Below are positions 2,069-36,062 of a stretch of DNA of 39,066 nucleotides, piece after piece (the first letter of the stretch is position 1; the number at the start of each line of letters is the position of its first letter). The stretch lies in IMG/VR virus record IMGVR_UViG_3300022744_000014, positions 1-39,066 of that record; one strand, 5' to 3'. Position numbers and translations under genes: made by a program. This DNA is from a virus. The notes under the pieces are model-generated. The model did not search any database. It was not told where the DNA came from and saw only the letters and a list, made by a program, of their open reading frames with translations.

Positions 2069-2235
2069 GACAACCCCCTAACGCGGCGCGTGCGCTGCTC
2101 CTGCACATCAAGCTCGCCCCGGATGCTGTCCAGGCGGGCGTCGTCGTCACCGTAGTCGCGGGAGAATGCGCAGAACTTGGCGACTATCCAGCACAGGGCA
2201 ATCCATGCTGTCAGCCAAAAGAGAAAAGTAAACAT
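2065..2235 (-). CDS. Small membrane protein, 56 aa
   Basis: ATG 2235 is preceded by AAGGAG with 7-nt spacing; N-terminal TM MFTFLFWLTAWIALCWIVAKFCAF. Confidence 0.55.
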   Translation of the reverse strand: MFTFLFWLTAWIALCWIVAKFCAFSRDYGDDDARLDSIRGELDVQEQRTRRVRGLS

Positions 2236-3023
2236 CAAACATTCTCCTTTGGAGTCCACAGCACGGCATGTGCCTCAATCATGAGCATCGCCATTTCGTA
2301 CTCTTTGGCGTGGTCGCTGTCTTCGTGGGTTTTTGCAACGGCAGCGCGGAATGCGTCCAGCGTGTCAAAAAAGCACCCCGCGCGGATCATCACGCCCTTG
2401 TCGGTGATGGAGGCTTGCAGATAGTCAGAACGGGAGCCGATGGGGCCGATGGTGAAAAACGGGCGAGTGCCTACGAGTTTTTTCCCGCCCAGGTCCGCGC
2501 CGCCCAGGTTCGCGCCGACCAGGTCCGCGCCGCCCAGGTCCGCGCCGACCAGGTACGCGCCGCCCAGGTCCGCGCCGCCCAGGTTCGCGCCGCCCAGGTC
2601 CGCGCCGCCCAGGTACGCGCCGCGCAGGTCCGCGCCGCGCAGGTCCGCGCCGCGCAGGTCCGCGCCGCCCAGGTTCGCGCCGCCCAGGTCCGCGCCGACC
2701 AGGTACGCGCCGCGCAGGTCCGCGCCGCGCAGGTCCGCGCCGACCAGGTACGCGCCGCCCAGGTCCGCGCCGACCAGGTCCGCGCCGACCAGGTTCGCGC
2801 CGCCCAGGTACGCGCCGACCAGGTACGCGCCGCCCAGGTCCGCGCCGACCAGGTCCGCGCCGCGCAGGTCCGCGCCGACCAGGTACGCGCCGCCCAGGTT
2901 CGCGCCGCCCAGGTTCGCTTTGGCAAACGTCGCCTTCTCCAGCGTCTGGCGCATCGTCATTCCGGCATCGCCCTCAAAAAGGACTGCGCCGGTATAGCGG
3001 TGTTTGATGATGATTTTTTCCAT
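2235..3023 (-). CDS. Pentapeptide-repeat protein, 262 aa: about 29 tandem A[D/N/Y]L[G/V/R]G units plus an 85-aa C-terminal domain
   Basis: ATG 3023 with AGGAGC SD. Translation ANLGGANLGGAYLVGADLRGADLVGADLGG... matches the pentapeptide-repeat consensus A(D/N)LXX. Confidence 0.9.
   Translation of the reverse strand: MEKIIIKHRYTGAVLFEGDAGMTMRQTLEKATFAKANLGGANLGGAYLVGADLRGADLVGADLGGAYLVGAYLGGANLVGADLVGADLGGAYLVGADLRGADLRGAYLVGADLGGANLGGADLRGADLRGADLRGAYLGGADLGGANLGGADLGGAYLVGADLGGADLVGANLGGADLGGKKLVGTRPFFTIGPIGSRSDYLQASITDKGVMIRAGCFFDTLDAFRAAVAKTHEDSDHAKEYEMAMLMIEAHAVLWTPKENV
2490..2918 (-). repeat. Tandem 15-bp repeat array: 28 full units plus a partial one, coding for the pentapeptide repeats
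   Basis: Plus-strand unit is caggt[c/t/a]cgcgccg[cc/ac/cg]. Only 3 of the 15 positions vary across all units. Confidence 0.95.
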
Positions 3024-3032
3024 GGTCTGCTC

Positions 3033-3251
3033 CTAAACAGCGGCGGCAAGAAACTCGGGCACCGATTCCGGCTCGGTGACGGACACGACAACCGGAGGCA
3101 GGCGGTTGAGTGCGTAGCGCATTTCCGTCCGTGCGTACATCACGGTTTTGTAGGCATCGTGGTTGGCGGTTTGCTTGCCAAACAGTTCTTGCTCGGCAAC
3201 AAGCAGAGCCGCATAAACCTCATGCAGCAGCTTGGCGTTGATGGTGCTCAT
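3033..3251 (-). CDS. Hypothetical protein, 72 aa
   Basis: ATG 3251 overlaps the upstream stop; part of the same-strand early gene string. Confidence 0.5.
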   Translation of the reverse strand: MSTINAKLLHEVYAALLVAEQELFGKQTANHDAYKTVMYARTEMRYALNRLPPVVVSVTEPESVPEFLAAAV

Positions 3252-3475
3252 ACAGACTCCACTTCCGGCAAATTGGCTTCGTAGTTCAGCGTGTCCACTA
3301 CGTCAGCAGACAGCGCTTTGATGATGTCCACGCCCTGATAGCGCACAGCGATAACGTCCTCAATCGCTTCCTCGTATTCCCGATCCATCGCGCTGTCATA
3401 GCGCTCGATGTAGCCGGTTTCTGTTTCGACTTCGACTACGGCAGCGCCGTCGCCGATGGTGGTTAGGAATTTCAT
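3248..3475 (-). CDS. Hypothetical acidic protein, 75 aa
   Basis: ATG 3475 (MKFLTTIGDG) preceded by AAGGAGC; the longer track ORF start is upstream of the SD. Confidence 0.55.
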   Translation of the reverse strand: MKFLTTIGDGAAVVEVETETGYIERYDSAMDREYEEAIEDVIAVRYQGVDIIKALSADVVDTLNYEANLPEVESV

Positions 3476-4083: not shown

Positions 4084-4322
4084 TAGACGCCTTTGCAGAC
4101 ATAGAGGCACGCATTGACGCTGCCGACAAGCGATACGGGCCATTTGCCAGCGCGCACGAAGGTTTGGGCGTGGCGCTGGAGGAATGGCAGGAGCTGATCG
4201 AGGCAGTGCGCTCCAACAGCATCATTGACGTGCAATCGGAATGCCTGGACCTGGCCGCAGTGTGCATCCGGCTTGCGATGTGCTTGGGCGAACCGCAAAC
4301 CGCACTTAGGAGCGTGAAGTGA
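4080..4322 (+). CDS. MazG-like all-alpha NTP pyrophosphohydrolase family protein, 80 aa
   Basis: ATGA overlap with the upstream gene. EEWQE ... ECLD spacing fits the EExxE...ExxD metal-binding motif of the MazG superfamily. Confidence 0.4.
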   Translation: MIDAFADIEARIDAADKRYGPFASAHEGLGVALEEWQELIEAVRSNSIIDVQSECLDLAAVCIRLAMCLGEPQTALRSVK

Positions 4323-6523
4323 ACTACGATGATTTTGTGAAAAGCAAGCGCCGCTTCGAGGTTGCTACCGGCCACAAACCCGCAGAGCTAAACGAGCATC
4401 TGTTTGATTTCCAGCACGCAATTGTGTCGTGGGCTGTCCGACGTGGCCGCGCCGCAATCTTTGCCGATACCGGCCTGGGCAAGACGCTGATGCAGTTGGC
4501 ATGGGCTCAGGAAGTGGCGCGGCACACGGGCGGCATGGTGCTTGTGCTTGCGCCCCTGGCAGTGTCCGAGCAGACCATCGAGCAGGGCGCATTGTTCGGC
4601 ATCGATGTGCGCCGCGTACCGCATGGCGAAGCACCTGCAGGGCCTGGCGTATGGATCACAAATTACGAGCGCATGGATGCGATTGATTTTGGCGAATTGC
4701 ATGGGATCGTGCTGGATGAGTCATCCATTTTGAAGGCGCATGACGGCAAGACGCGCGGGCGCATCATCTCCCAATCGCAGAGCGTGCCGTACCGGCTTTC
4801 GTGCACTGCTACGCCATCGCCTAACGACTTTGAGGAGCTTGGCAACCAATGCGAGTTTCTCGGGGTGATGACGCGCACAGAGATGCTGGCGACTTACTTT
4901 GTCAACGACACTGGAGACACCGGGACATGGCGTCTTAAGGGATGGGGCGCATCCAAGTTTTGGGAGTGGATGGGGACATGGGCAGTCGTTCTGCGCAGCC
5001 CTGCGGATATTGGTTTTGATGGTTCGCGCTACGACTTGCCGCCGCTTGTCTATCATGAGCATGTGGTGGAAACCGAGTCTCTTGGAGATGATTTGTTTTC
5101 CCGGCCAGCACAGACCATGCTGGAGCGCAGGAAGGCCCAACGGGACAGCATCGAAAGCCGATGCAAGGCCCTGGCCGACATTGTGAACGCGGAGCCTAAC
5201 GAGCCGTGGCTGATCTGGTGCCACCTGAACGACGAAGCGCAGATGCTGGCCGAGATGATTGGCGGTGCCGTGAATGTGCAGGGTTCAGATTCCGCCGAAA
5301 GCAAGAGTAAAAACCTGCTTGGTTTTGCGCATGGAGATTTGCGAGTACTGGTCAGCAAGCCCAAACTCGCAGGCTACGGGATGAATTGGCAGCACTGCGC
5401 CCGCATGGCGTTTGTCGGTCTGGATGACAGCTTCGAGAAGTTTTATCAAGCTGTGCGTCGGTGCTATCGCTTCGGCCAAAAGCGCGAGGTGCAAGTGCAT
5501 ATCTTCACGGCTGAGAACGAGGGGCAGATCATTACCAACATCCGGCGCAAGGAAGTGCAGCACCACGAGATGAGCATCCAGATGATTGAACACATGAAGG
5601 ACATTATGAACAAGGAACTTGCAGGTCAAGAGAACATTGTGGACGAGTACCGCGAAGATGTTTTTAGGTCAGAGAACTTTACCGTTCACCTTGGGGACTG
5701 CGTGAAGATGGCCCGCAAGCTGCCCGACAACAGCATTGATTACTCGGTGTTCAGCCCGCCGTTTGCCGACCTGTTTGTTTATTCCAATTCCGATCACGAC
5801 ATGGGTAACTGTAAGGATGATGCGGAGTTTGTTGCGCAGTTGCGGTTTCTGATTGCAGAACTGTTTCGCACGATCAAGCCGGGGCGCAATGTGTCATTCC
5901 ATTGCATGAACCTGCCGACAACCAAGATGCGGCAGGGATTCATCGGCCTGCGTGACTTTCGTGGGGATCTGATCCGAGCGTTTCAGGATGCCGGGTTTAT
6001 CTACCACTCTGAAGTTGCCATTTGGAAGGACCCGGTAGTGGCGATGCAACGCACCAAGGCACTCGGATTGCTTCACAAGACGATCCGCGAGAACGCAACC
6101 ATGTCAAGGATGGGCCTTCCTGATTACGTGGTGACCATGCGAAAGCCTGGGGATTGTGAAGTCAGGGTGACGCATGGCGATGACCTGCCGGTGATGATGT
6201 GGCAGAAGTTTGCAAGCCCCATCTGGAGCGACATTAACCAAGGGCGCACATTGAACAAACTTCCTGCCCGAGACGACAATGACGAAAAACACATGTGCCC
6301 GCTGCAGCTGGATGTGATCGAGCGGTGCATTCATCTTTGGACTAACAAGGGCGACTTGATCTTTTCTCCGTTTACCGGCATTGGCTCGGAGGGATATTGC
6401 GCCGTCAGGATGGGGCGTAGGTTTATCGGTGCCGAGTTGAAGCCCCAGTATTGGGAGCTTGCGTGTCAGAACATTGCTGATGCCGAGCATGAGCAGCATG
6501 GCCTTTTTGCGGAGGCAGCATGA
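4319..6523 (+). CDS. Fusion protein, 734 aa: N-terminal SNF2/DEAD-type helicase plus C-terminal beta-class N6A/N4C DNA methyltransferase
   Basis: GTG start with GTGA overlap. Helicase motifs ADTGLGKT (I), VLDESSILK (II), SCTATPSPND (III), QAVRRCYRFGQKREV (VI). Methyltransferase motif IV DYSVFSPPFADLF precedes motif I FSPFTGIGSEGYCAV. Confidence 0.85.
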   Translation: MNYDDFVKSKRRFEVATGHKPAELNEHLFDFQHAIVSWAVRRGRAAIFADTGLGKTLMQLAWAQEVARHTGGMVLVLAPLAVSEQTIEQGALFGIDVRRVPHGEAPAGPGVWITNYERMDAIDFGELHGIVLDESSILKAHDGKTRGRIISQSQSVPYRLSCTATPSPNDFEELGNQCEFLGVMTRTEMLATYFVNDTGDTGTWRLKGWGASKFWEWMGTWAVVLRSPADIGFDGSRYDLPPLVYHEHVVETESLGDDLFSRPAQTMLERRKAQRDSIESRCKALADIVNAEPNEPWLIWCHLNDEAQMLAEMIGGAVNVQGSDSAESKSKNLLGFAHGDLRVLVSKPKLAGYGMNWQHCARMAFVGLDDSFEKFYQAVRRCYRFGQKREVQVHIFTAENEGQIITNIRRKEVQHHEMSIQMIEHMKDIMNKELAGQENIVDEYREDVFRSENFTVHLGDCVKMARKLPDNSIDYSVFSPPFADLFVYSNSDHDMGNCKDDAEFVAQLRFLIAELFRTIKPGRNVSFHCMNLPTTKMRQGFIGLRDFRGDLIRAFQDAGFIYHSEVAIWKDPVVAMQRTKALGLLHKTIRENATMSRMGLPDYVVTMRKPGDCEVRVTHGDDLPVMMWQKFASPIWSDINQGRTLNKLPARDDNDEKHMCPLQLDVIERCIHLWTNKGDLIFSPFTGIGSEGYCAVRMGRRFIGAELKPQYWELACQNIADAEHEQHGLFAEAA

Positions 6524-7174: not shown

Positions 7175-7906
7175 GTGAACTACTACGAGCGCCACATCGG
7201 GGACTACCTGAAGGACACGGCGCACCTGTCCCTGCTTGAGCATGGGGTTTATAGCCGTCTGCTGGACGTTTATTACACGCGGGAGGGCGCCATCCCCGTC
7301 GCGCAGGTTGAACGACTTATCGGCGTGCGTAGCAAGGACGAGAAGGCTGCGCTTGCCAATGTGCTGGATGAGTTCTTTACAGTAGGCGCAGAGATGCTGA
7401 CGCACAACCGTTGCGATCGTGAAATTGCACGCTATCAGGACAAGCAAGCGAAGGCAAAGCGCAGTGCTGACGCACGATGGATTGCGCAACGTTCGCACAG
7501 CGGTGGCAATGCGAACGCAATGCGAACGCATAGCGAAGGCAATGCTCTCCAGTCTCCAGTAACCAGTAACCAGACACCAGACACCAAAGAAGAGAGAGAT
7601 AGCGGGTCAGCGCAAGCGCCGACACCGCCACCCCCGTACCGAGGGGAAGCGAATGAGGCAGAAATTCACCCTAAAGCCAAGGTCGTTCTGGCGACGGATT
7701 GGGAGTTGCCGGAGCCGTGGGGCGTGGATGCCGAGAGCCTTGGCTGGCCTGCGCAGAACATCTTGCACGAGGCGGAGAAGTTCCGGCAGTTCTACACGGT
7801 CGGCAAGGGTGGGGGAACGCGCCGTGGGCTGAAAGGCTGGCGGCAATCGTGGTCTAACTGGCTGTCGAACGCTGAGAAGTTCGCGCCGATTCGGAGGGTT
7901 GCATGA
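7175..7906 (+). CDS. DUF1376 (YdaU-like) replication-associated protein, 243 aa
   Basis: GTG 7175 gives VNYYERHIGDYLKDTAHLSLLEHGVYSRLLDVYY, the typical DUF1376 N-terminus. Alternative in-frame starts are ATG 7130 and TTG 7043. Confidence 0.65.
   Translation: MNYYERHIGDYLKDTAHLSLLEHGVYSRLLDVYYTREGAIPVAQVERLIGVRSKDEKAALANVLDEFFTVGAEMLTHNRCDREIARYQDKQAKAKRSADARWIAQRSHSGGNANAMRTHSEGNALQSPVTSNQTPDTKEERDSGSAQAPTPPPPYRGEANEAEIHPKAKVVLATDWELPEPWGVDAESLGWPAQNILHEAEKFRQFYTVGKGGGTRRGLKGWRQSWSNWLSNAEKFAPIRRVA
7506..7587 (+). repeat. Short tandem repeats inside the DUF1376 gene: 11-mer gcaatgcgaac x2 plus degenerate copies, then heptamers NNNccag x6
   Basis: gcaatgcgaac at 7506-7516 and 7517-7527; tctccag x2, taaccag x2, acaccag/acaccaa across 7546-7587; inverted gttcgc at 7491-7496. 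Confidence 0.8.
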
Positions 7907-17107: not shown

Positions 17108-19204
17108 ATGAGCATTCGCGTAACGATCACAAAGAGCGGCGTCACGGACGGCTATGGCATTGCCATGGTTGTAGGGACGACATACACAGTCAATGATGAC
17201 TTTGGACTGTCGCTCATCAGTCAAGGCAAAGCCACCGACACAGATGGAAGTCTGGTCAATCCAGGGGTTGGGCTTGGTGTTGCGCCAAGTTTGGTGTATT
17301 GCAACGCAGCCACCATCGCAGCACCGACTGCGGCAATGCTTGCAAACGTCAACGCGATTTATGCGCTTGATGTTGCGCCATTTGGGCGCTATCGCAGCAA
17401 TGGAACGGCGCTTGTGTCTGCGGCTGAAGTTCAAAACTCTAACGGGTTTTTATCTTTGGTGGATGGTTCTGGTGGCGTTCCTCCGACTGCGCAGCCAGGG
17501 GTTCGCACTGTACTTTTTGGCGATTCACTCACGGATAACTACGAAGTCGTTGTAATTTCAACAAGCGCAGTTTTGTCGGGCAGCACGTTGACGGTAACTT
17601 ATGCCGGTCATCAGCAAGCCAATGGCTGGTATGTGTGCCTATGGAACAAAACATATTCCAGCTTCACCAAATTTCAACGCTTGCCGGTTACGGTAACGTC
17701 TTCAAGCGTCTTTACTGTTGCGCTTCCTACAGACGTTGCAGCGGGATTGCCACAAGGCGCACTTGCGGGAACGACGTTCTATCGTGCTGAATCTTGGCGC
17801 AGCGCGGAACATTGGCTAGGCTGGCTGCAAGCCATAAGCGGGCAGCGTTTCAACATTGTCTGGAACGGCGGGCAGTCTGGAGACACGACTGCGCAGGCAC
17901 TGGACCGCGTGACCCGCGACCTGAGTCCGTACAGCCCGCAACTCGTTTTCATGGTGATGCCGGGAATTAACGACATGTCTGCTAATCCGACGACATCGGA
18001 AGAAACGATCTACACCAACCAAGTGGCCTTGATTCGAGCCGTCAAGAATACCGGGGCTTACTTGGTGCTGATGACGCCCCAGCCGGTGTGCAGCCCCGAT
18101 ACGCGGGCGACGGCTCAACTGATGAGCAAGATTCGACGGCTAAAAGACCGGGTGCAGGCTTACTGTTTGGGGATTACTGGCGTCACCGTGGTGGACGCAT
18201 TTAAGGCAATTGTGGACCCCACATCTGCGACCGGGTTGGCAAACACCAATTACCTGCGGACAACGGACGGAACGCACTACAGCCAACGCGGCGGCAAGTT
18301 CTTGGCCGATCTGATTTGGTCGCAAATTCAGCCCTATTTCCCCGGCAACGTGCAGACGCTCCCGGCATCCAAGCAGGACCGCTACATCGGTTCTGCGCTG
18401 TCCTTGACCAGCGTCAGCAGGGCGTCGAACGTTGTCACTGGGACATCCAACGCCCACAATCGTTCTGTGGGCGAGGTGCTGAAACTCTCCGGCGGCTCGG
18501 AATCGTTCAATTCCTATGTCACGCTGACCGCCGTCACCACAAACACGGTGTCTTTTGCCTCAACCGGATCGGATGGCTCAATCACGGGCACCATCCTGCT
18601 AGGCGGCGACAACAACATTTTTGACAACCCGACTTTCGACACCGCAACGGGCGGCACGTTGGTCGCTGGCTCGGGAACCTGCACAGGCACTGCCCCAAGT
18701 CTCATCAAGGTCAGCAACGTAGCGGGGACGCCTGCGACGGTTTGCTCTGTCGTCGCTCGCCCGGACGGCTATGGCAACGACCTGCAGCTGGTTATCACGC
18801 CCGCATCTACCTCCGATCAAGTTTCGGCACAGGTGGACTTCACCCCGTCAACCGTCACATACCCGGCGCTGGTTCTTGCTGGACGCACCTACTATTTTGA
18901 GTGTGAGGTTTCGCTGATCGGCGTGGCAGGTTGCGGGCTGGGTGAAATCCGCTGCAACATGAGCATGACCATTGGCGGAACGCAGTACCAGACCTATGCG
19001 CTCAACGGTTATGTGAACGGCGCTGTCATCAACGAGGACGTAACCGGGTTGCATTTGCGAAGTGCCCCGTTGTTGATGCCGTCTGGGACCGCCACGATCG
19101 TCAGGCCAGAGGTCTTGGTTGGTTTCAGCAATTGGGCATCTGGTGCAACCCCGCTTGTTGTGAAGATTGGGCGCGTTGCCCTGCGTGAAGTCGAAGGAGC
19201 CTGA
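17108..19204 (+). CDS. SGNH/GDSL-hydrolase domain protein, 698 aa (putative virion-associated esterase/deacetylase)
   Basis: Block I VLFGDSLTDNY, block II WNGGQSGDTT, block III MPGINDM, block V DGTHYS, in the canonical order. Confidence 0.75.
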   Translation: MSIRVTITKSGVTDGYGIAMVVGTTYTVNDDFGLSLISQGKATDTDGSLVNPGVGLGVAPSLVYCNAATIAAPTAAMLANVNAIYALDVAPFGRYRSNGTALVSAAEVQNSNGFLSLVDGSGGVPPTAQPGVRTVLFGDSLTDNYEVVVISTSAVLSGSTLTVTYAGHQQANGWYVCLWNKTYSSFTKFQRLPVTVTSSSVFTVALPTDVAAGLPQGALAGTTFYRAESWRSAEHWLGWLQAISGQRFNIVWNGGQSGDTTAQALDRVTRDLSPYSPQLVFMVMPGINDMSANPTTSEETIYTNQVALIRAVKNTGAYLVLMTPQPVCSPDTRATAQLMSKIRRLKDRVQAYCLGITGVTVVDAFKAIVDPTSATGLANTNYLRTTDGTHYSQRGGKFLADLIWSQIQPYFPGNVQTLPASKQDRYIGSALSLTSVSRASNVVTGTSNAHNRSVGEVLKLSGGSESFNSYVTLTAVTTNTVSFASTGSDGSITGTILLGGDNNIFDNPTFDTATGGTLVAGSGTCTGTAPSLIKVSNVAGTPATVCSVVARPDGYGNDLQLVITPASTSDQVSAQVDFTPSTVTYPALVLAGRTYYFECEVSLIGVAGCGLGEIRCNMSMTIGGTQYQTYALNGYVNGAVINEDVTGLHLRSAPLLMPSGTATIVRPEVLVGFSNWASGATPLVVKIGRVALREVEGA

Positions 19205-26274: not shown

Positions 26275-26769
26275 CTACAGCATGTTTCCTTGGTGATGGA
26301 TGCGCTTTGCCGTCAAGTAGGCGGCGTGCGCGTGTTCGGGTTCAAAATATTCGCCGAGGTGAATATATTTGCCGTCAATGGTGATCGACGCTTGCCATTT
26401 ATTGCGGTGCTTTCTAACGCCCAAAAATCGAGATGCGTTTCCCTTTTTGGCGCTGCGCAGATTTTGCAAGTTGACGGATTGAGGAACGTCGCGCAAATTG
26501 CAAATGCGGTTATTCAATGGGTTGCCGTCAATGTGGTCAATGTAGTTGTCCGGCCATCTGCCATGGGCGTAAAGCCATGCAAGGCGGTGCAAACGATAGA
26601 TGCGGCCATCCACTCTGATGGCGCGGTAACCATCGTCCGTAAAATTGCCCGCCACCGAGCCGACAACAATGCGCCTATTTGGTTTTTTGAGCCACGTAAA
26701 GACGCCGGTTTCCGGGTCGTAGTGGAGAAGTTCGCGCAAGCGCTGCGCGGTAAGATCGGTCTTAGCCAT
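26275..26769 (-). CDS. HNH homing endonuclease with C-terminal AP2 DNA-binding domain
   Basis: YRLHRLAWLYAHGRWPDNYIDHIDGNPLNNRICNLR (HNH_3-type) then FLGVRKHRNKWQASITIDGKYIHLGEYFEPEHAHAAY (AP2). Opposite strand to all neighbours and lower GC. Confidence 0.85.
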   Translation of the reverse strand: MAKTDLTAQRLRELLHYDPETGVFTWLKKPNRRIVVGSVAGNFTDDGYRAIRVDGRIYRLHRLAWLYAHGRWPDNYIDHIDGNPLNNRICNLRDVPQSVNLQNLRSAKKGNASRFLGVRKHRNKWQASITIDGKYIHLGEYFEPEHAHAAYLTAKRIHHQGNML

Positions 26770-34688: not shown

Positions 34689-34943
34689 TCAAGTCCCTGC
34701 GCGGATAGCGGCGGCAAGATATTTCACGGAACTGCGCACAATCTGCCAAGCCTCGTCTGCGGTGTAGGTGCGCAAAGGCTCCAGCGTCATGTATCGCTGT
34801 TCGTCCAGCACCTTAGCCGCCCGCTCGGTGGCTGCTTGCCAAGCCGCCCATGCAAGCTCTGCGGCAAAAGGCTCATACTTGGCTTTGTACGGATCGCGCA
34901 ACGGCGGGTATAGCCACGCCTCAAACGCTTGTCGTGTGTCCAT
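34689..34943 (-). CDS. Hypothetical protein, 84 aa; last gene of the leftward unit
   Basis: ATG 34943 with AAGGAG SD; its stop abuts the spanin stop. Confidence 0.55.
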   Translation of the reverse strand: MDTRQAFEAWLYPPLRDPYKAKYEPFAAELAWAAWQAATERAAKVLDEQRYMTLEPLRTYTADEAWQIVRSSVKYLAAAIRAGT

Positions 34944-34969: not shown

Positions 34970-35827
34970 CTACGCAGCTATGCGGTAGTCTTTTTTGATG
35001 ACGCCCGCGCCGTTACCAGCGCCAACTACGGCAGCATTTACCCATATTCTGCGGCCATCAAAAAGCCTGCGGATGTGCCCGCGCCTTAGATGCTCCCTTG
35101 GCGACCTGTGACCATTGGCGCATCCAATATGATCCGTCGCCTCTTTGCTTGGCTCTATAGTCAGTATGTGATAGGCGTCAAACGGCAATGCCGCCTTGAT
35201 TTTTTTGCCTTCATTTTTTGGGGCACTTCTTTCAATGTGGACGTTTGAACATTGCAGCACATTCAAGAAACACAACAGGGCACCAAGTTCGTCCATGTAA
35301 TCCGACATCGGCACGGACTCATTCATCATTTTTACTTGGATTGGAACTCCTAGATGGCCTATAGTTTGGCTTCTATCAAGGTAGTACGTAGTCGGTATGG
35401 CGCATTCTGGAAGCACCCGCCACTTTCCATCGTGCTGAGTCCAAAACGCAACCGTAATGGCAATCCAATCATCGCGCTCTCTGGCAAAAACAATGCGCTT
35501 TGGGGCGACGATAAAGTTATCGGCTTCGTATTGTGCAACGCCATTTAAGTAGCCTATAGGGGCATCTTCTTGGCGGGTTTTCCCGCTTGTGTTGTATTCC
35601 AGTGCTATGTATGGGTACGGCAGTCGCAATGGCTTTTCCTCGTCTAAAGCCCGAAATTGGAGGTCTTCAAACAGCCTGCCACCATGCGGCAAAAGAAATT
35701 TTGTCGATGCCCCGTGCAAGTCCACAATATGACTCATCACCGAGCGCAACTCGGCCCCAATGCTTGGAACCTCAAGCATTTGTTTGCAATATTTAGTGAG
35801 TTGCCGCGAGTAATTCAGATGTTCCAT
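34970..35827 (-). CDS. Hypothetical protein, 285 aa, in the low-GC island
   Basis: ATG 35827 (MEHLNYSRQ); the track ORF extends to a TTG at 35914 but that extension overlaps a better small ORF; no recognised domain. Confidence 0.55.
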   Translation of the reverse strand: MEHLNYSRQLTKYCKQMLEVPSIGAELRSVMSHIVDLHGASTKFLLPHGGRLFEDLQFRALDEEKPLRLPYPYIALEYNTSGKTRQEDAPIGYLNGVAQYEADNFIVAPKRIVFARERDDWIAITVAFWTQHDGKWRVLPECAIPTTYYLDRSQTIGHLGVPIQVKMMNESVPMSDYMDELGALLCFLNVLQCSNVHIERSAPKNEGKKIKAALPFDAYHILTIEPSKEATDHIGCANGHRSPREHLRRGHIRRLFDGRRIWVNAAVVGAGNGAGVIKKDYRIAA

Positions 35828-35969
35828 TTTTTTCCAGCATCGCAAGTATTGCCAACATATCGTGCTCCCAATTTGGCCTAAATTGCGGCCATTCCGGGCA
35901 GTGCATGAAGTCAAGAAGCAGTGCCTGAATCACGCCCGCCTGATCTTCGGTTAGTTGAAGAGTGACCAT
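35793..35969 (-). CDS. Small ORF, 58 aa, in the low-GC island
   Basis: Hand translation MVTLQLTEDQAGVIQALLLDFMHCPEWPQFRPNWEHDMLAILAMLEKNGTSELLAATH; overlaps the next gene start by 35 nt; no strong SD. Confidence 0.35.
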   Translation of the reverse strand: MVTLQLTEDQAGVIQALLLDFMHCPEWPQFRPNWEHDMLAILAMLEKNGTSELLAATH

Positions 35970-35986
35970 GGTTATGCAGCAACGCC

Positions 35987-36008
35987 GCAGACGCGATGCA
36001 GACGCGAT
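35987..36008. repeat. Perfect tandem duplication of the 11-mer gcagacgcgat
   Basis: 35987-35997 equals 35998-36008; lies in the 93-bp gap upstream of the low-GC island. Confidence 0.9.
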
Positions 36009-36062
36009 CCGCGCAAGTGGTTGATTCTATTGGGCATGTTGGGCTGTCGGTTGGGCACCGAG

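What the first reader, a model, noticed from the sequence alone, without database searches (positions are those of the whole stretch)
34970..36062. Low-GC two-gene island of unknown function at the distal end of the early-left operon, preceded by a tandem 11-mer
The segment is conspicuously AT-richer than the rest of the genome, with runs such as tttttttgccttcattttttgg and catcatttttacttgg. It encodes a 58-aa ORF (35969-35793) overlapping by 35 nt a 285-aa ORF (35827-34970). Neither shows a motif I can recognise. The 285-aa protein ends in a basic His/Arg-rich segment (GHRSPREHLRRGHIRRLFDGRRIWVN). Upstream, a 93-bp gap contains a perfect tandem duplication gcagacgcgat x2 (35987-36008) and a TAGAAT -10-like hexamer on the coding strand (plus-strand attcta, 36024-36029), so the island may be independently regulated. 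It occupies the position where lambda/P22-like phages carry int-xis or accessory exclusion genes. Foreign composition, operon-end location, paired overlapping genes and possible independent regulation make this the best candidate for a novel accessory system: superinfection exclusion, anti-defence, a toxin-antitoxin-like pair or an unconventional recombinase.
Basis: partly seen in the sequence, partly recalled or inferred. Interest (0 to 1): 0.68.

Follow-up and report, generated by a model that had tools for sequence, protein, structure and literature searches.

The report
Phage gene resembling an anti-CRISPR silencer
The low-GC island holds a real 285-aa phage early gene whose invariant C-terminal block matches the essential H-x-R-x-x-H module of AcrVA2 and FinQ, proteins that lower the mRNA of one specific target, but it is joined to a different front domain of unknown fold, so its target is unknown.

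Summary
The region 34970-35969 is the lowest-GC kilobase of the window (0.49 vs 0.58). Both ORFs exist with a 35-nt overlap, and the tandem 11-mer is perfect. The 285-aa protein is not an orphan: it belongs to a family of at least 4,448 clusters at 50% identity, found in phages, conjugative plasmids and ICEs, all annotated as hypothetical. Its invariant block R-E-H246-L-R248-R-G-H251…W262 aligns with AcrVA2 H286/R288/H291…W309, the residues needed for translation-dependent loss of cas12a mRNA. Profile-profile E is 2e-5 overall and 3e-6 for the C-terminus alone, at about 9 SD above permuted controls. The 225-residue N-terminal domain shows no detectable homology to AcrVA2 and no PDB fold match. 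I therefore read it as a distant variant of the AcrVA2/FinQ kind, with a shared effector module, a different recognition domain, an unknown target, and Cas12a an unlikely target. The 58-aa ORF is a real gene (dN/dS 0.07) but is restricted to this lineage, so there is no conserved pair and no toxin-antitoxin signature. The 93-bp gap and the 11-mer are absent from the closest relative, and no promoter is detected, so independent regulation is unsupported. The GC deficit is family-wide (85% of 75 phage loci).

The parts
34970..35827 (-). 285-aa gene: distant AcrVA2/FinQ-superfamily protein of the 'RRGHIRR...KDY' clade
   Evidence: ORF and translation. 960 word-indexed homologs and 4,448 clusters at 50% identity in the exhaustive search. 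Under purifying selection against the 91% relative, dN/dS 0.088. Full-length homology to the enterobacterial/Pseudomonas plasmid clade that Pfam assigns to PF26125 AcrVA2-like, hhalign 100%, E 1.8e-39.
35153..35827 (-). Residues 1-225: confidently modelled alpha/beta domain with no known fold; proposed recognition domain
   Evidence: AF2 pLDDT mostly 88-98. No PDB fold match at E<=1e-3 in two searches. Only anonymous family members match in BFVD. No significant profile similarity to the AcrVA2 N-terminal region: E 0.097 and 0.44, within the permuted null. Family invariants are K43, F44, P70, E77, W136, E180, C193, N195 and Y219.
34985..35107 (-). Residues 241-281: invariant C-terminal effector module R-x-x-R-E-H246-L-R248-R-G-H251-I-R...W262-V-N...K279-D-Y281. 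The HLRRGH codons lie at 35075-35092
   Evidence: Invariant in 110 sequences from phages and plasmids and nearly unchanged in MAG-encoded relatives from other phyla. Aligns with AcrVA2 H286/R288/H291/W309. C-terminus-only hhalign gives E 3e-5 and 3.3e-6. Full-profile score is 41.6 against a permuted null of 15.7 +/- 2.9. Folds as four short beta-strands in the deeper model.
35793..35969 (-). 58-aa gene overlapping the start of the 285-aa gene by 35 nt; lineage-specific orphan of unknown role
   Evidence: A 57-aa gene with the same overlap is called in L025 and L026. It is 79% identical, with dN/dS 0.066 in frame against 5.8 and 1.2 in the other two frames. It has no Pfam, PHROG, NCBIfam or PADLOC hit. 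It is absent from all other loci, from IMG/VR and from GenBank phages, and its cluster has 3 members. It was not called in this contig's own gene prediction.
35970..36062 (.). 93-bp intergenic gap upstream of the 58-aa ORF
   Evidence: No promoter-like site. Not conserved: in L025 the small ORF's ATG overlaps the upstream gene's stop.
35987..36008 (.). Perfect tandem duplication GCAGACGCGAT x2
   Evidence: 3% of simulations show one of 11 nt or more. No further copies in the window, and the count with one mismatch allowed is not above chance. Absent from the closest relative. Most simply a local slippage duplication; a regulator site with one-helical-turn spacing is not excluded.

Best explanation
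The 285-aa gene encodes a two-module protein of the AcrVA2/FinQ kind, made early in infection from the leftward early operon. Shown here: its last ~45 residues form an invariant module homologous to the C-terminal module of AcrVA2 and FinQ, including the three residues (His-x-Arg-x-x-His) without which AcrVA2 cannot lower its target's mRNA. Inferred: the confidently folded N-terminal domain of ~225 residues, which has no known fold, binds one specific protein, probably as it emerges from the ribosome, and the C-terminal module then triggers loss of that protein's mRNA. The target would thus be silenced at the level of its synthesis. The target is unknown. It is probably a host defence protein or a protein of a rival mobile element, and probably not Cas12a, because the domain that would recognise it is unrelated to AcrVA2's. 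The upstream 58-aa gene is real and probably translationally coupled, but it is an add-on of this lineage and not part of the family's mechanism. The low GC is a family trait of this mobile accessory gene.
For: (1) A precomputed Pfam hint, PF26125 'AcrVA2-like', is faint on 6 of the 120 closest homologs and weak-to-present on most of the plasmid clade. (2) The window clade and the plasmid clade are one family over the full length: hhalign 100%, E 1.8e-39. (3) Against a profile built only from bona fide AcrVA2-clade proteins, the window-clade profile gives E 2.4e-4, the merged profile 6e-5, and a 324-sequence profile 2.1e-5. The C-terminal parts alone give 3e-5 and 3.3e-6. (4) Null controls: score 41.6 against 15.7 +/- 2.9 (max 22.7, n=60) for column-permuted profiles and 15.3 for the reversed profile. 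(5) The aligned residues are the invariant ones in both families, H246/R248/H251/W262 against H286/R288/H291/W309. H286A, R288A and H291A abolish AcrVA2 activity while keeping target binding (bioRxiv 10.1101/2022.11.29.518452). (6) That paper reports a conserved C-terminus with divergent N-termini, a spread over phages, plasmids and megaphages usually without Cas12a, and proposes other targets. The distribution here is the same: 79 IMG/VR phage loci, 222 plasmids of which 201 are conjugative, ICE tra regions and a jumbo phage. (7) The gene lies in an early operon with NinB and RecT, and in comparable early or accessory positions in other phages. (8) 43 of the 50 ORFs ranked highest by the AcrVA2-only HMM, out of 7,925 ORFs, are members of this family.
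Against: The similarity covers only about 35-65 residues. A plain AcrVA2-clade HMM gives no individually significant hit (best E 0.46), and the window protein is not among its top 50. Foldseek with a confident model (pLDDT 87) does not retrieve the AcrVA2 crystal structure 7CI1. The N-terminal domain shows no significant similarity, so target and phenotype cannot be transferred. The stored part of the published 1,800-ortholog table contains no RRGHI-type sequence. This clade also has an extra invariant tail (K279-D-Y281) that AcrVA2 lacks, which could mean a different activity. The AcrVA2 mechanism itself rests on a preprint and a heterologous host, and the biochemical role of the H-x-R-x-x-H residues and the degradation machinery are unknown.
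Confidence: 0.55

Rival explanations
1. Only the C-terminal module is shared, and it is a generic RNA-, ribosome- or RNA-polymerase-binding element. The protein would then act differently from AcrVA2, for example as a FinQ-style factor that lowers transcripts of a rival element by promoting termination, or as a direct RNA-binding or RNA-cleaving protein with no recognition of a nascent chain.
For: Homology is limited to the C-terminal block. FinQ was described as lowering F tra mRNA with no mechanism established. There is an extra invariant KDY tail. In pEMT1-type plasmids the gene is the fixed neighbour of an H-NS homolog and KfrA, and H-NS is also nearby in L019, which hints at a link to nucleoid or transcription biology.
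Against: The only member with a dissected mechanism uses these same residues for translation-dependent mRNA loss. The large, strongly conserved N-terminal domain looks like a specific recognition module and not a generic binder.
Confidence: 0.22
2. It is a genuine anti-CRISPR against Cas12a, like AcrVA2 itself.
For: It shares the effector motif with AcrVA2 and is a phage early gene.
Against: The N-terminal region is not detectably related to AcrVA2's, whether by sequence or by fold search. W79 and D89 have no statistically supported counterparts. AcrVA2 homologs are mostly found where Cas12a is absent. The family spans Burkholderiales-like phages, IncI-gamma/K plasmids and ICEs.
Confidence: 0.05
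3. The 58-aa and 285-aa genes form a toxin-antitoxin-like or superinfection-exclusion pair.
For: They overlap by 35 nt and both are under purifying selection. They form one low-GC island.
Against: The small gene is absent next to the large gene in more than 100 other loci. Neither matches PADLOC or any TA model. They are transcribed within a lytic early operon, and no promoter of their own is detected.
Confidence: 0.05
4. The resemblance to AcrVA2 is convergent or due to chance, and the protein is an unrelated MGE protein of unknown function, for example a DNA-binding or recombination accessory factor standing in for int-xis.
For: The similarity is short. The plain HMM search is not significant. 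There is no structural hit. In L017 the gene directly follows an integrase.
Against: The profile-profile score lies about 9 SD above permuted controls and improves as the profile gets deeper. Invariant residues align with invariant, mutationally essential residues. An independent Pfam hint agrees. There is no recombinase or DNA-binding domain hit.
Confidence: 0.1

Closest known systems
AcrVA2 (Moraxella bovoculi prophage anti-CRISPR; PDB 7CI1/7CI2; Pfam PF26125 AcrVA2-like)
   Same: It has a C-terminal module with the same H-x-R-x-x-H spacing followed by a conserved Trp and hydrophobic strand (HLRRGH...W against HIRRGH...W). It is of similar size (285 vs 322 aa). It is carried by phages and plasmids, has a conserved tail joined to a variable front part, and is an early or accessory gene of a mobile element.
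   Different: No N-terminal homology is detectable (E 0.1-0.4, within the null), and Foldseek does not retrieve 7CI1. The loop between the His block and the Trp is shorter. There is an extra invariant G-x-G-x-V-x-K-D-Y tail. There is no evidence of a link to Cas12a. The window clade is absent from the stored part of the published ortholog set.
FinQ of IncI plasmid R820a (fertility inhibitor of F; lowers tra mRNA)
   Same: It has the same C-terminal KRPHIRR-type motif and belongs to the same superfamily according to Marino et al. It is an MGE-encoded weapon against another MGE, which is the kind of role proposed here.
   Different: It is a different clade: FinQ groups with AcrVA2 and not with the RRGHIRR/KDY clade. 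The published FinQ sequence departs from the motif after HIRR. Its target (F tra) is known, whereas the target here is not.
Unnamed 'RRGHIRR...KDY' proteins of conjugative plasmids and ICEs (e.g. WP_000655519.1 on IncI-gamma/K1 plasmids; the H-NS-adjacent gene of pEMT1-type MOBP plasmids)
   Same: Homology is full-length (hhalign 100%, E 1.8e-39), with all family invariants shared from P47 and L69-P70 through C193 and N195 to K279 and Y281. This is the window protein's true family.
   Different: Identity is 24-31%. The plasmid proteins carry insertions of 50-70 residues in the N-terminal domain. They sit in plasmid backbones (next to H-NS/KfrA, or inside tra regions), not in a phage early operon. 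All are annotated as hypothetical, and none is characterised.

Membership tests
AcrVA2/FinQ family (Pfam PF26125 AcrVA2-like) | Conserved C-terminal H-x-R-x-x-H residues (AcrVA2 H286, R288, H291) that are essential for activity | tested here: met
   H246-L-R248-R-G-H251 is invariant in 110 family sequences and aligns to H286/R288/H291. Their essentiality in AcrVA2 comes from bioRxiv 10.1101/2022.11.29.518452.
AcrVA2/FinQ family (Pfam PF26125 AcrVA2-like) | Statistically significant sequence-profile similarity to bona fide AcrVA2-clade proteins | tested here: met
   This holds for the C-terminal module only. hhalign E is 2.4e-4 (A1), 6e-5 (A6) and 2.1e-5 (324 sequences); the C-terminus alone gives 3e-5 and 3.3e-6. 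The score of 41.6 compares with a permuted null of 15.7 +/- 2.9. A plain HMM search is not significant (best E 0.46).
AcrVA2/FinQ family (Pfam PF26125 AcrVA2-like) | Homology of the N-terminal and middle domains to AcrVA2 (full-length membership) | tested here: not met
   N-terminal parts alone give E 0.097 (score 17.8; null 13.4 +/- 2.1) and, with the deeper profile, E 0.44 (score 12.4; null 12.3 +/- 1.8). The register coincidences F44~W79, D54~D89 and LP~LP in the relaxed alignment are not statistically supported.
AcrVA2/FinQ family (Pfam PF26125 AcrVA2-like) | Fold similarity to the AcrVA2 crystal structure (7CI1/7CI2) | tested here: inconclusive
   Foldseek with the pLDDT-87 model returns no hit at E<=1e-3, and 7CI1 is not among the top 50. 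AcrVA2 is in the PDB sequence copy, but the Foldseek library holds fewer entries and I could not verify that 7CI1 is in it. A small C-terminal module may also fall below Foldseek's sensitivity.
AcrVA2/FinQ family (Pfam PF26125 AcrVA2-like) | Score above the Pfam gathering threshold for PF26125 | tested here: inconclusive
   The local Pfam copy appears to lack the model: proteins with precomputed PF26125 hits give no local hit. Precomputed hits are 'faint' on P0086 and listed for 6 of the 120 closest homologs, and 'weak' on plasmid-clade P0272. NCBIfam has no AcrVA2 HMM, since AcrVA2 itself gets no hit.
AcrVA2/FinQ family (Pfam PF26125 AcrVA2-like) | Encoded on mobile genetic elements (phages, plasmids, megaphages) | tested here: met
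   The window is a P22-like podovirus. The gene is found in 79 IMG/VR loci, 222 plasmids of which 201 are conjugative, ICE tra regions and a jumbo phage.
AcrVA2/FinQ family (Pfam PF26125 AcrVA2-like) | Translation-dependent down-regulation of a specific target mRNA after binding its N-terminal polypeptide; inhibition of Cas12a | not testable with these tools
   This needs expression, RNA-seq or qRT-PCR, co-IP with an H246A trap mutant, and Cas12a phage-targeting assays.
RRGHIRR...KDY clade (unnamed; plasmid protein WP_000655519.1 and relatives) | Full-length homology with shared invariant residues | tested here: met
   tblastn gives E 2e-9 to 6e-6 over 82-99% of the query. hhalign gives 100%, E 1.8e-39 over 278 columns. 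Shared invariants are listed.
Type II toxin-antitoxin pair | Obligate co-occurrence of the two adjacent genes across relatives; match to known toxin or antitoxin families | tested here: not met
   The 58-aa ORF is found only in the window lineage (L003, L025, L026) out of more than 100 loci and in none of IMG/VR or GenBank phages. There are no PADLOC, Pfam or NCBIfam hits.
Integrase/excisionase or other site-specific recombinase | Tyrosine or serine recombinase, or Xis/HTH domain | tested here: not met
   Neither ORF has a Pfam, PHROG or NCBIfam hit at E<=1. In L017 and L027 a separate Phage_integrase gene sits near the homolog, so the gene accompanies an integrase and does not replace one.

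The most novel reading that the evidence does not exclude
The RRGHIRR...KDY proteins form a very large, unrecognised sister branch of AcrVA2/FinQ (at least 4,448 clusters at 50% identity, larger than the published AcrVA2 ortholog set). In this branch the mRNA-silencing effector module is fused to a different ~225-residue domain of previously unseen fold. That domain is conserved across relatives from Proteobacteria, Planctomycetota and Bacteroidota, which implies one widely conserved target that is not Cas12a, such as a common defence or host protein. If so, nascent-chain-directed mRNA silencing would be a modular, general weapon of phages, conjugative plasmids and ICEs, not a one-off anti-CRISPR trick.
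Probability: 0.4. Interest if true: 0.75.

Novelty: new variant of a known kind. Interest (0 to 1): 0.52.

Why it matters
AcrVA2 is so far the only bacterial example of a protein that recognises another protein's nascent chain and removes its mRNA, and how it does this is unknown. A second, much larger and highly conserved clade with the same essential triad but another recognition domain would offer three things. It would be an independent system in which to find the degradation machinery. It would give a route to new targets, by trapping partners with an H246A mutant. It would also give a functional lead for thousands of 'hypothetical' genes on phages, IncI/K resistance plasmids and ICEs, which may influence which mobile elements can establish in a cell. 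Because AcrVA2 also silences proteins carrying its recognition peptide as a tag, a second recognition domain could extend polypeptide-specific gene silencing as a tool.

Tried and rejected
Several searches led nowhere. Pfam, PHROGs, NCBIfam and PADLOC scans of both ORFs gave no hits. I later showed that the Pfam and NCBIfam negatives are uninformative for AcrVA2, because the local copies lack such a model. Megablast of 9 kb against GenBank phages found no match. PDB sequence searches with the A1 and A2 profiles and the plasmid homolog found nothing. BFVD returned only anonymous family members. A literature search for the plasmid protein accession returned nothing.

I rejected five readings. 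N-terminal homology to AcrVA2 looked attractive by eye and in a relaxed alignment, but domain-wise tests with permutation controls did not support it, and a deeper profile made it weaker. A toxin-antitoxin or obligate two-gene system fails because the small ORF is lineage-specific. An independent promoter with the 11-mer as a conserved operator fails on the negative scan, the lack of conservation in L025 and the absence of other copies. A recent foreign insertion specific to this phage fails because the GC deficit is family-wide. I considered a plasmid leading-region anti-defence location. The pEMT1-type plasmids place the gene next to mob/oriT, but in IncI-gamma/K1 plasmids it lies near the resolvase, ProQ/FinO and replication genes and in ICEs inside the tra genes, so the position is not uniform. 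I did not pursue this further.
Full report
**1. The observation**

The window is a 39-kb metagenomic contig (ENA ERZ27252002, k141_716795) of a P22-like podovirus. It has a P22-type portal, a large terminase, a lysozyme/Rz lysis cassette, and a leftward early operon with NinB and RecT.

The segment 34970-35969 has GC 0.493 against 0.582 overall. It contains the lowest-GC 1-kb window of the whole sequence. The deficit is also seen at third codon positions: 0.52 and 0.49 against 0.61-0.75 in other genes.

One correction: an 84-aa gene of normal GC (34689-34943) follows on the same strand. The island is therefore penultimate in the operon, which ends tail-to-tail against the Rz-like gene.

**2. 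The 285-aa protein belongs to a very large anonymous family**

Curated libraries gave nothing, and GenBank phages held only one distant relative, in a jumbo Pseudomonas phage.

The metagenome-scale searches were different. They found 960 word-indexed homologs, and 4,448 clusters at 50% identity in the exhaustive profile search, with 558 of those at E<=1e-30. None of them carries a name.

Alignments show an unusual pattern. The most conserved part is the C-terminal tail, H-R-S-P-R-E-H-L-R-R-G-H-I-R-R…W-V-N…K-D-Y. It is almost unchanged in relatives from Planctomycetota, Flavobacteriales, Alphaproteobacteria and Syntrophobacteraceae MAGs, while the body of the protein drifts and takes insertions.

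Distant full-length relatives (24-31% identity) occur in 222 plasmids, 201 of them conjugative. They are found in three settings:
- In IncI-gamma/K1 plasmids of Escherichia, Shigella and Salmonella.
- As the fixed last gene after a C5-methyltransferase, KfrA and H-NS, next to the mob region, in pEMT1-type plasmids of Pseudomonas, Xanthomonas and Paraburkholderia.
- Inside the tra genes of ICE-like elements.

Profile-profile comparison of the window clade with this plasmid clade gives 100% probability and E 1.8e-39 over the full length.

**3. The lead to AcrVA2/FinQ and how I tested it**

A precomputed, 'faint' Pfam annotation on homolog P0086 named PF26125, 'AcrVA2-like'. The plasmid clade carries this assignment widely, at 'weak' level where the level is shown.

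The preprint of Marino et al. (bioRxiv 10.1101/2022.11.29.518452) reports the following:
- H286, R288 and H291 in the C-terminus are required for this loss but not for binding.
- Homologs, including the plasmid fertility inhibitor FinQ, are widespread on mobile elements that usually lack Cas12a.
- The C-terminus is conserved while the N-terminus diverges.

Using the sequences in their Supplementary Table 3, I built a profile of bona fide AcrVA2-clade proteins.

The window family's invariant H246-x-R248-x-x-H251…W262 aligns with H286-x-R288-x-x-H291…W309. The statistics improve steadily as the profiles deepen:

| Query profile | hhalign E |
|---|---|
| Window clade (A1) | 2.4e-4 |
| Plasmid clade (A5) | 3.8e-5 |
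| Merged profile (A6) | 6e-5 |
| 324-sequence profile | 2.1e-5 |
| C-terminal parts alone | 3e-5 and 3.3e-6 |

Controls gave a real score of 41.6 against 15.7 +/- 2.9 (max 22.7) for 60 column-permuted profiles and 15.3 for the reversed profile. An HMM made only from AcrVA2-clade proteins ranks members of this family in 43 of its top 50 places among 7,925 background ORFs. However, no single hit is significant, and the window protein is not among the 50.

**4. What is not shared**

The N-terminal 225 residues fold confidently: the second AlphaFold model, built without any AcrVA2-clade sequence, has pLDDT 87 and pTM 0.84. They match no PDB fold.

A relaxed alignment put F44/D54 opposite AcrVA2's W79/D89, and LP opposite LP. 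Tested alone, the N-terminal parts score within the permuted null: E 0.097, then 0.44 with the deeper profile. I therefore do not claim N-terminal homology.

Foldseek did not return 7CI1. I could not verify that the entry is in the Foldseek library, so this test gives no support and is not decisive either way.

The stored part of the published table of about 1,800 orthologs has hundreds of RRGHW and RRAHW sequences but no RRGHI sequence. This clade therefore lies outside the stored part of what was catalogued. It also has an invariant K-D-Y tail that AcrVA2 lacks.

**5. The 58-aa ORF, the gap and the 11-mer**

The small ORF is a real gene. The two 91%-identical relatives carry a 57-aa version with the same 35-nt overlap. 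Its dN/dS is 0.066 in frame, against 5.8 and 1.2 in the other two frames.

It is absent upstream of every more distant homolog examined, from 79 IMG/VR loci and from GenBank phages. Its cluster has three members. It is thus a lineage-specific add-on, which argues against a toxin-antitoxin-like pair.

The gap and the 11-mer are not conserved. In L025 the small ORF's ATG overlaps the preceding gene's stop. No sigma-70-like site lies in the gap, and the 11-mer has no other copies. The duplication is rarer than chance (3% of simulations) but is most simply a slippage event. A second one lies at 7506.

**6. The GC dip**

In 75 phage loci whose flanks range from 36 to 70% GC, the family gene is lower in GC than its flanks in 85% of cases. 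The mean difference is -6.0 points (Wilcoxon p 9e-11), and the gene lies in the lowest decile of its own locus in 60%. Gene GC tracks flank GC with a slope of 0.93.

The dip is therefore a hallmark of this mobile accessory gene family, not a sign of a recent event in this phage. Whether it reflects frequent transfer or selection cannot be decided here.

**7. Mechanism, and how far it is shown**

Shown here:
- The gene is real and under purifying selection, and it lies in a phage early operon.
- Its family spans phages, plasmids and ICEs.
- Its C-terminal module is homologous to the essential module of AcrVA2/FinQ.
- Its N-terminal domain is different.

Inferred:
- The protein silences the synthesis of one specific protein, by recognition through the N-terminal domain and mRNA loss through the C-terminal triad.
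- The strong conservation of the N-terminal domain across distant hosts suggests a widely conserved target.
- Cas12a is unlikely to be that target.

I put this explanation at 0.55. The main rival, at 0.22, keeps the shared module but gives it a different mode of action, such as FinQ-like effects on transcripts or direct RNA binding. Chance resemblance (0.10), a true anti-Cas12a function (0.05), a toxin-antitoxin or exclusion pair (0.05) and a recombinase role (very unlikely) follow.

**8. Novelty and verdict**

This is not a categorically new system. It is a distant, uncatalogued variant of the AcrVA2/FinQ kind, with a new recognition domain and an unknown target. Its family is larger than the published AcrVA2 ortholog set. 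Marino et al. already predicted divergent N-termini and other targets, which tempers the surprise. The value lies in pointing to a very large, highly conserved and experimentally tractable second clade. Interest 0.52.

Noticed in passing
window 2235-3284 (GC 0.78 at 2501-3000): An extremely GC-rich stretch with perfect 15-nt tandem repeats (CGCGCCGCGCAGGTC and variants at 2616-2900). The + strand ORF 2268-3284 hits Pfam 'Decapeptide repeat region' (E 3.6e-17). The - strand ORF 2235-3023, which is the one called in the contig's gene prediction and lies in the early operon, hits several PHROGs of unknown function (E down to 1e-43). Which strand is really coding is unresolved.
   Followed up: partly
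window 4319-6523 (+): A 734-aa fusion of an SNF2/DEAD-type helicase with an N6/N4 DNA methyltransferase domain. The same fusion sits near the AcrVA2-like gene in a related contig (L028, 745 aa).
   Followed up: no
window 17108-19204 (+): A 698-aa protein in the structural module with a GDSL/SGNH lipase-acylhydrolase domain (E 2.6e-15). It may be a tail-associated esterase that modifies a surface polysaccharide receptor.
   Followed up: no
window 26275-26769 (-): A 164-aa HNH_3 endonuclease gene lies antisense within the otherwise + strand structural gene block (precomputed Pfam).
   Followed up: no
window 7506-7527: A second perfect tandem 11-mer duplication (GCAATGCGAAC x2). Two such events in one 39-kb genome are more than the roughly 0.03 expected per simulated window.
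   Followed up: no
L013 8603-9930; L014 6591-7918; L015 6665-7999; L019 919-1263: In pEMT1-type MOBP plasmids the family gene is always immediately downstream of an H-NS-family gene (after KfrA and, in two of the three plasmids examined, a C5-methyltransferase), abutting the mob/oriT region. An H-NS gene also lies in the same early block in phage-like contig L019. This may be a functional link, or simply a shared 'establishment' gene neighbourhood.
   Followed up: partly
L022-L024 6001-7056: Plasmid-clade homologs (P0272, Enterobacteriaceae) are inserted between TraC_F_IV and TraU/TraG_N genes of ICE or conjugative-element transfer regions, near a Peptidase_S24 repressor-like gene. This resembles the variable hotspots of SXT/R391-type elements.
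   Followed up: no
L001/L004 7417-7938: In the Rubrivivax-MAG phage, the gene just upstream of the homolog encodes a 173-aa protein with an HNH-like Cys/His C-terminus (CEGCG...HH...CEGCH). The homolog there lies three small genes before the terminase and not at an operon end, so the position of the family gene within phage genomes is variable.
   Followed up: partly
75 IMG/VR loci among L030-L108: The family gene is systematically about 6 GC points below its flanks, whatever the phage GC (36-70%), with a regression slope of 0.93. A constant offset across such a range is unusual for simple 'recent transfer' and is unexplained.
   Followed up: partly
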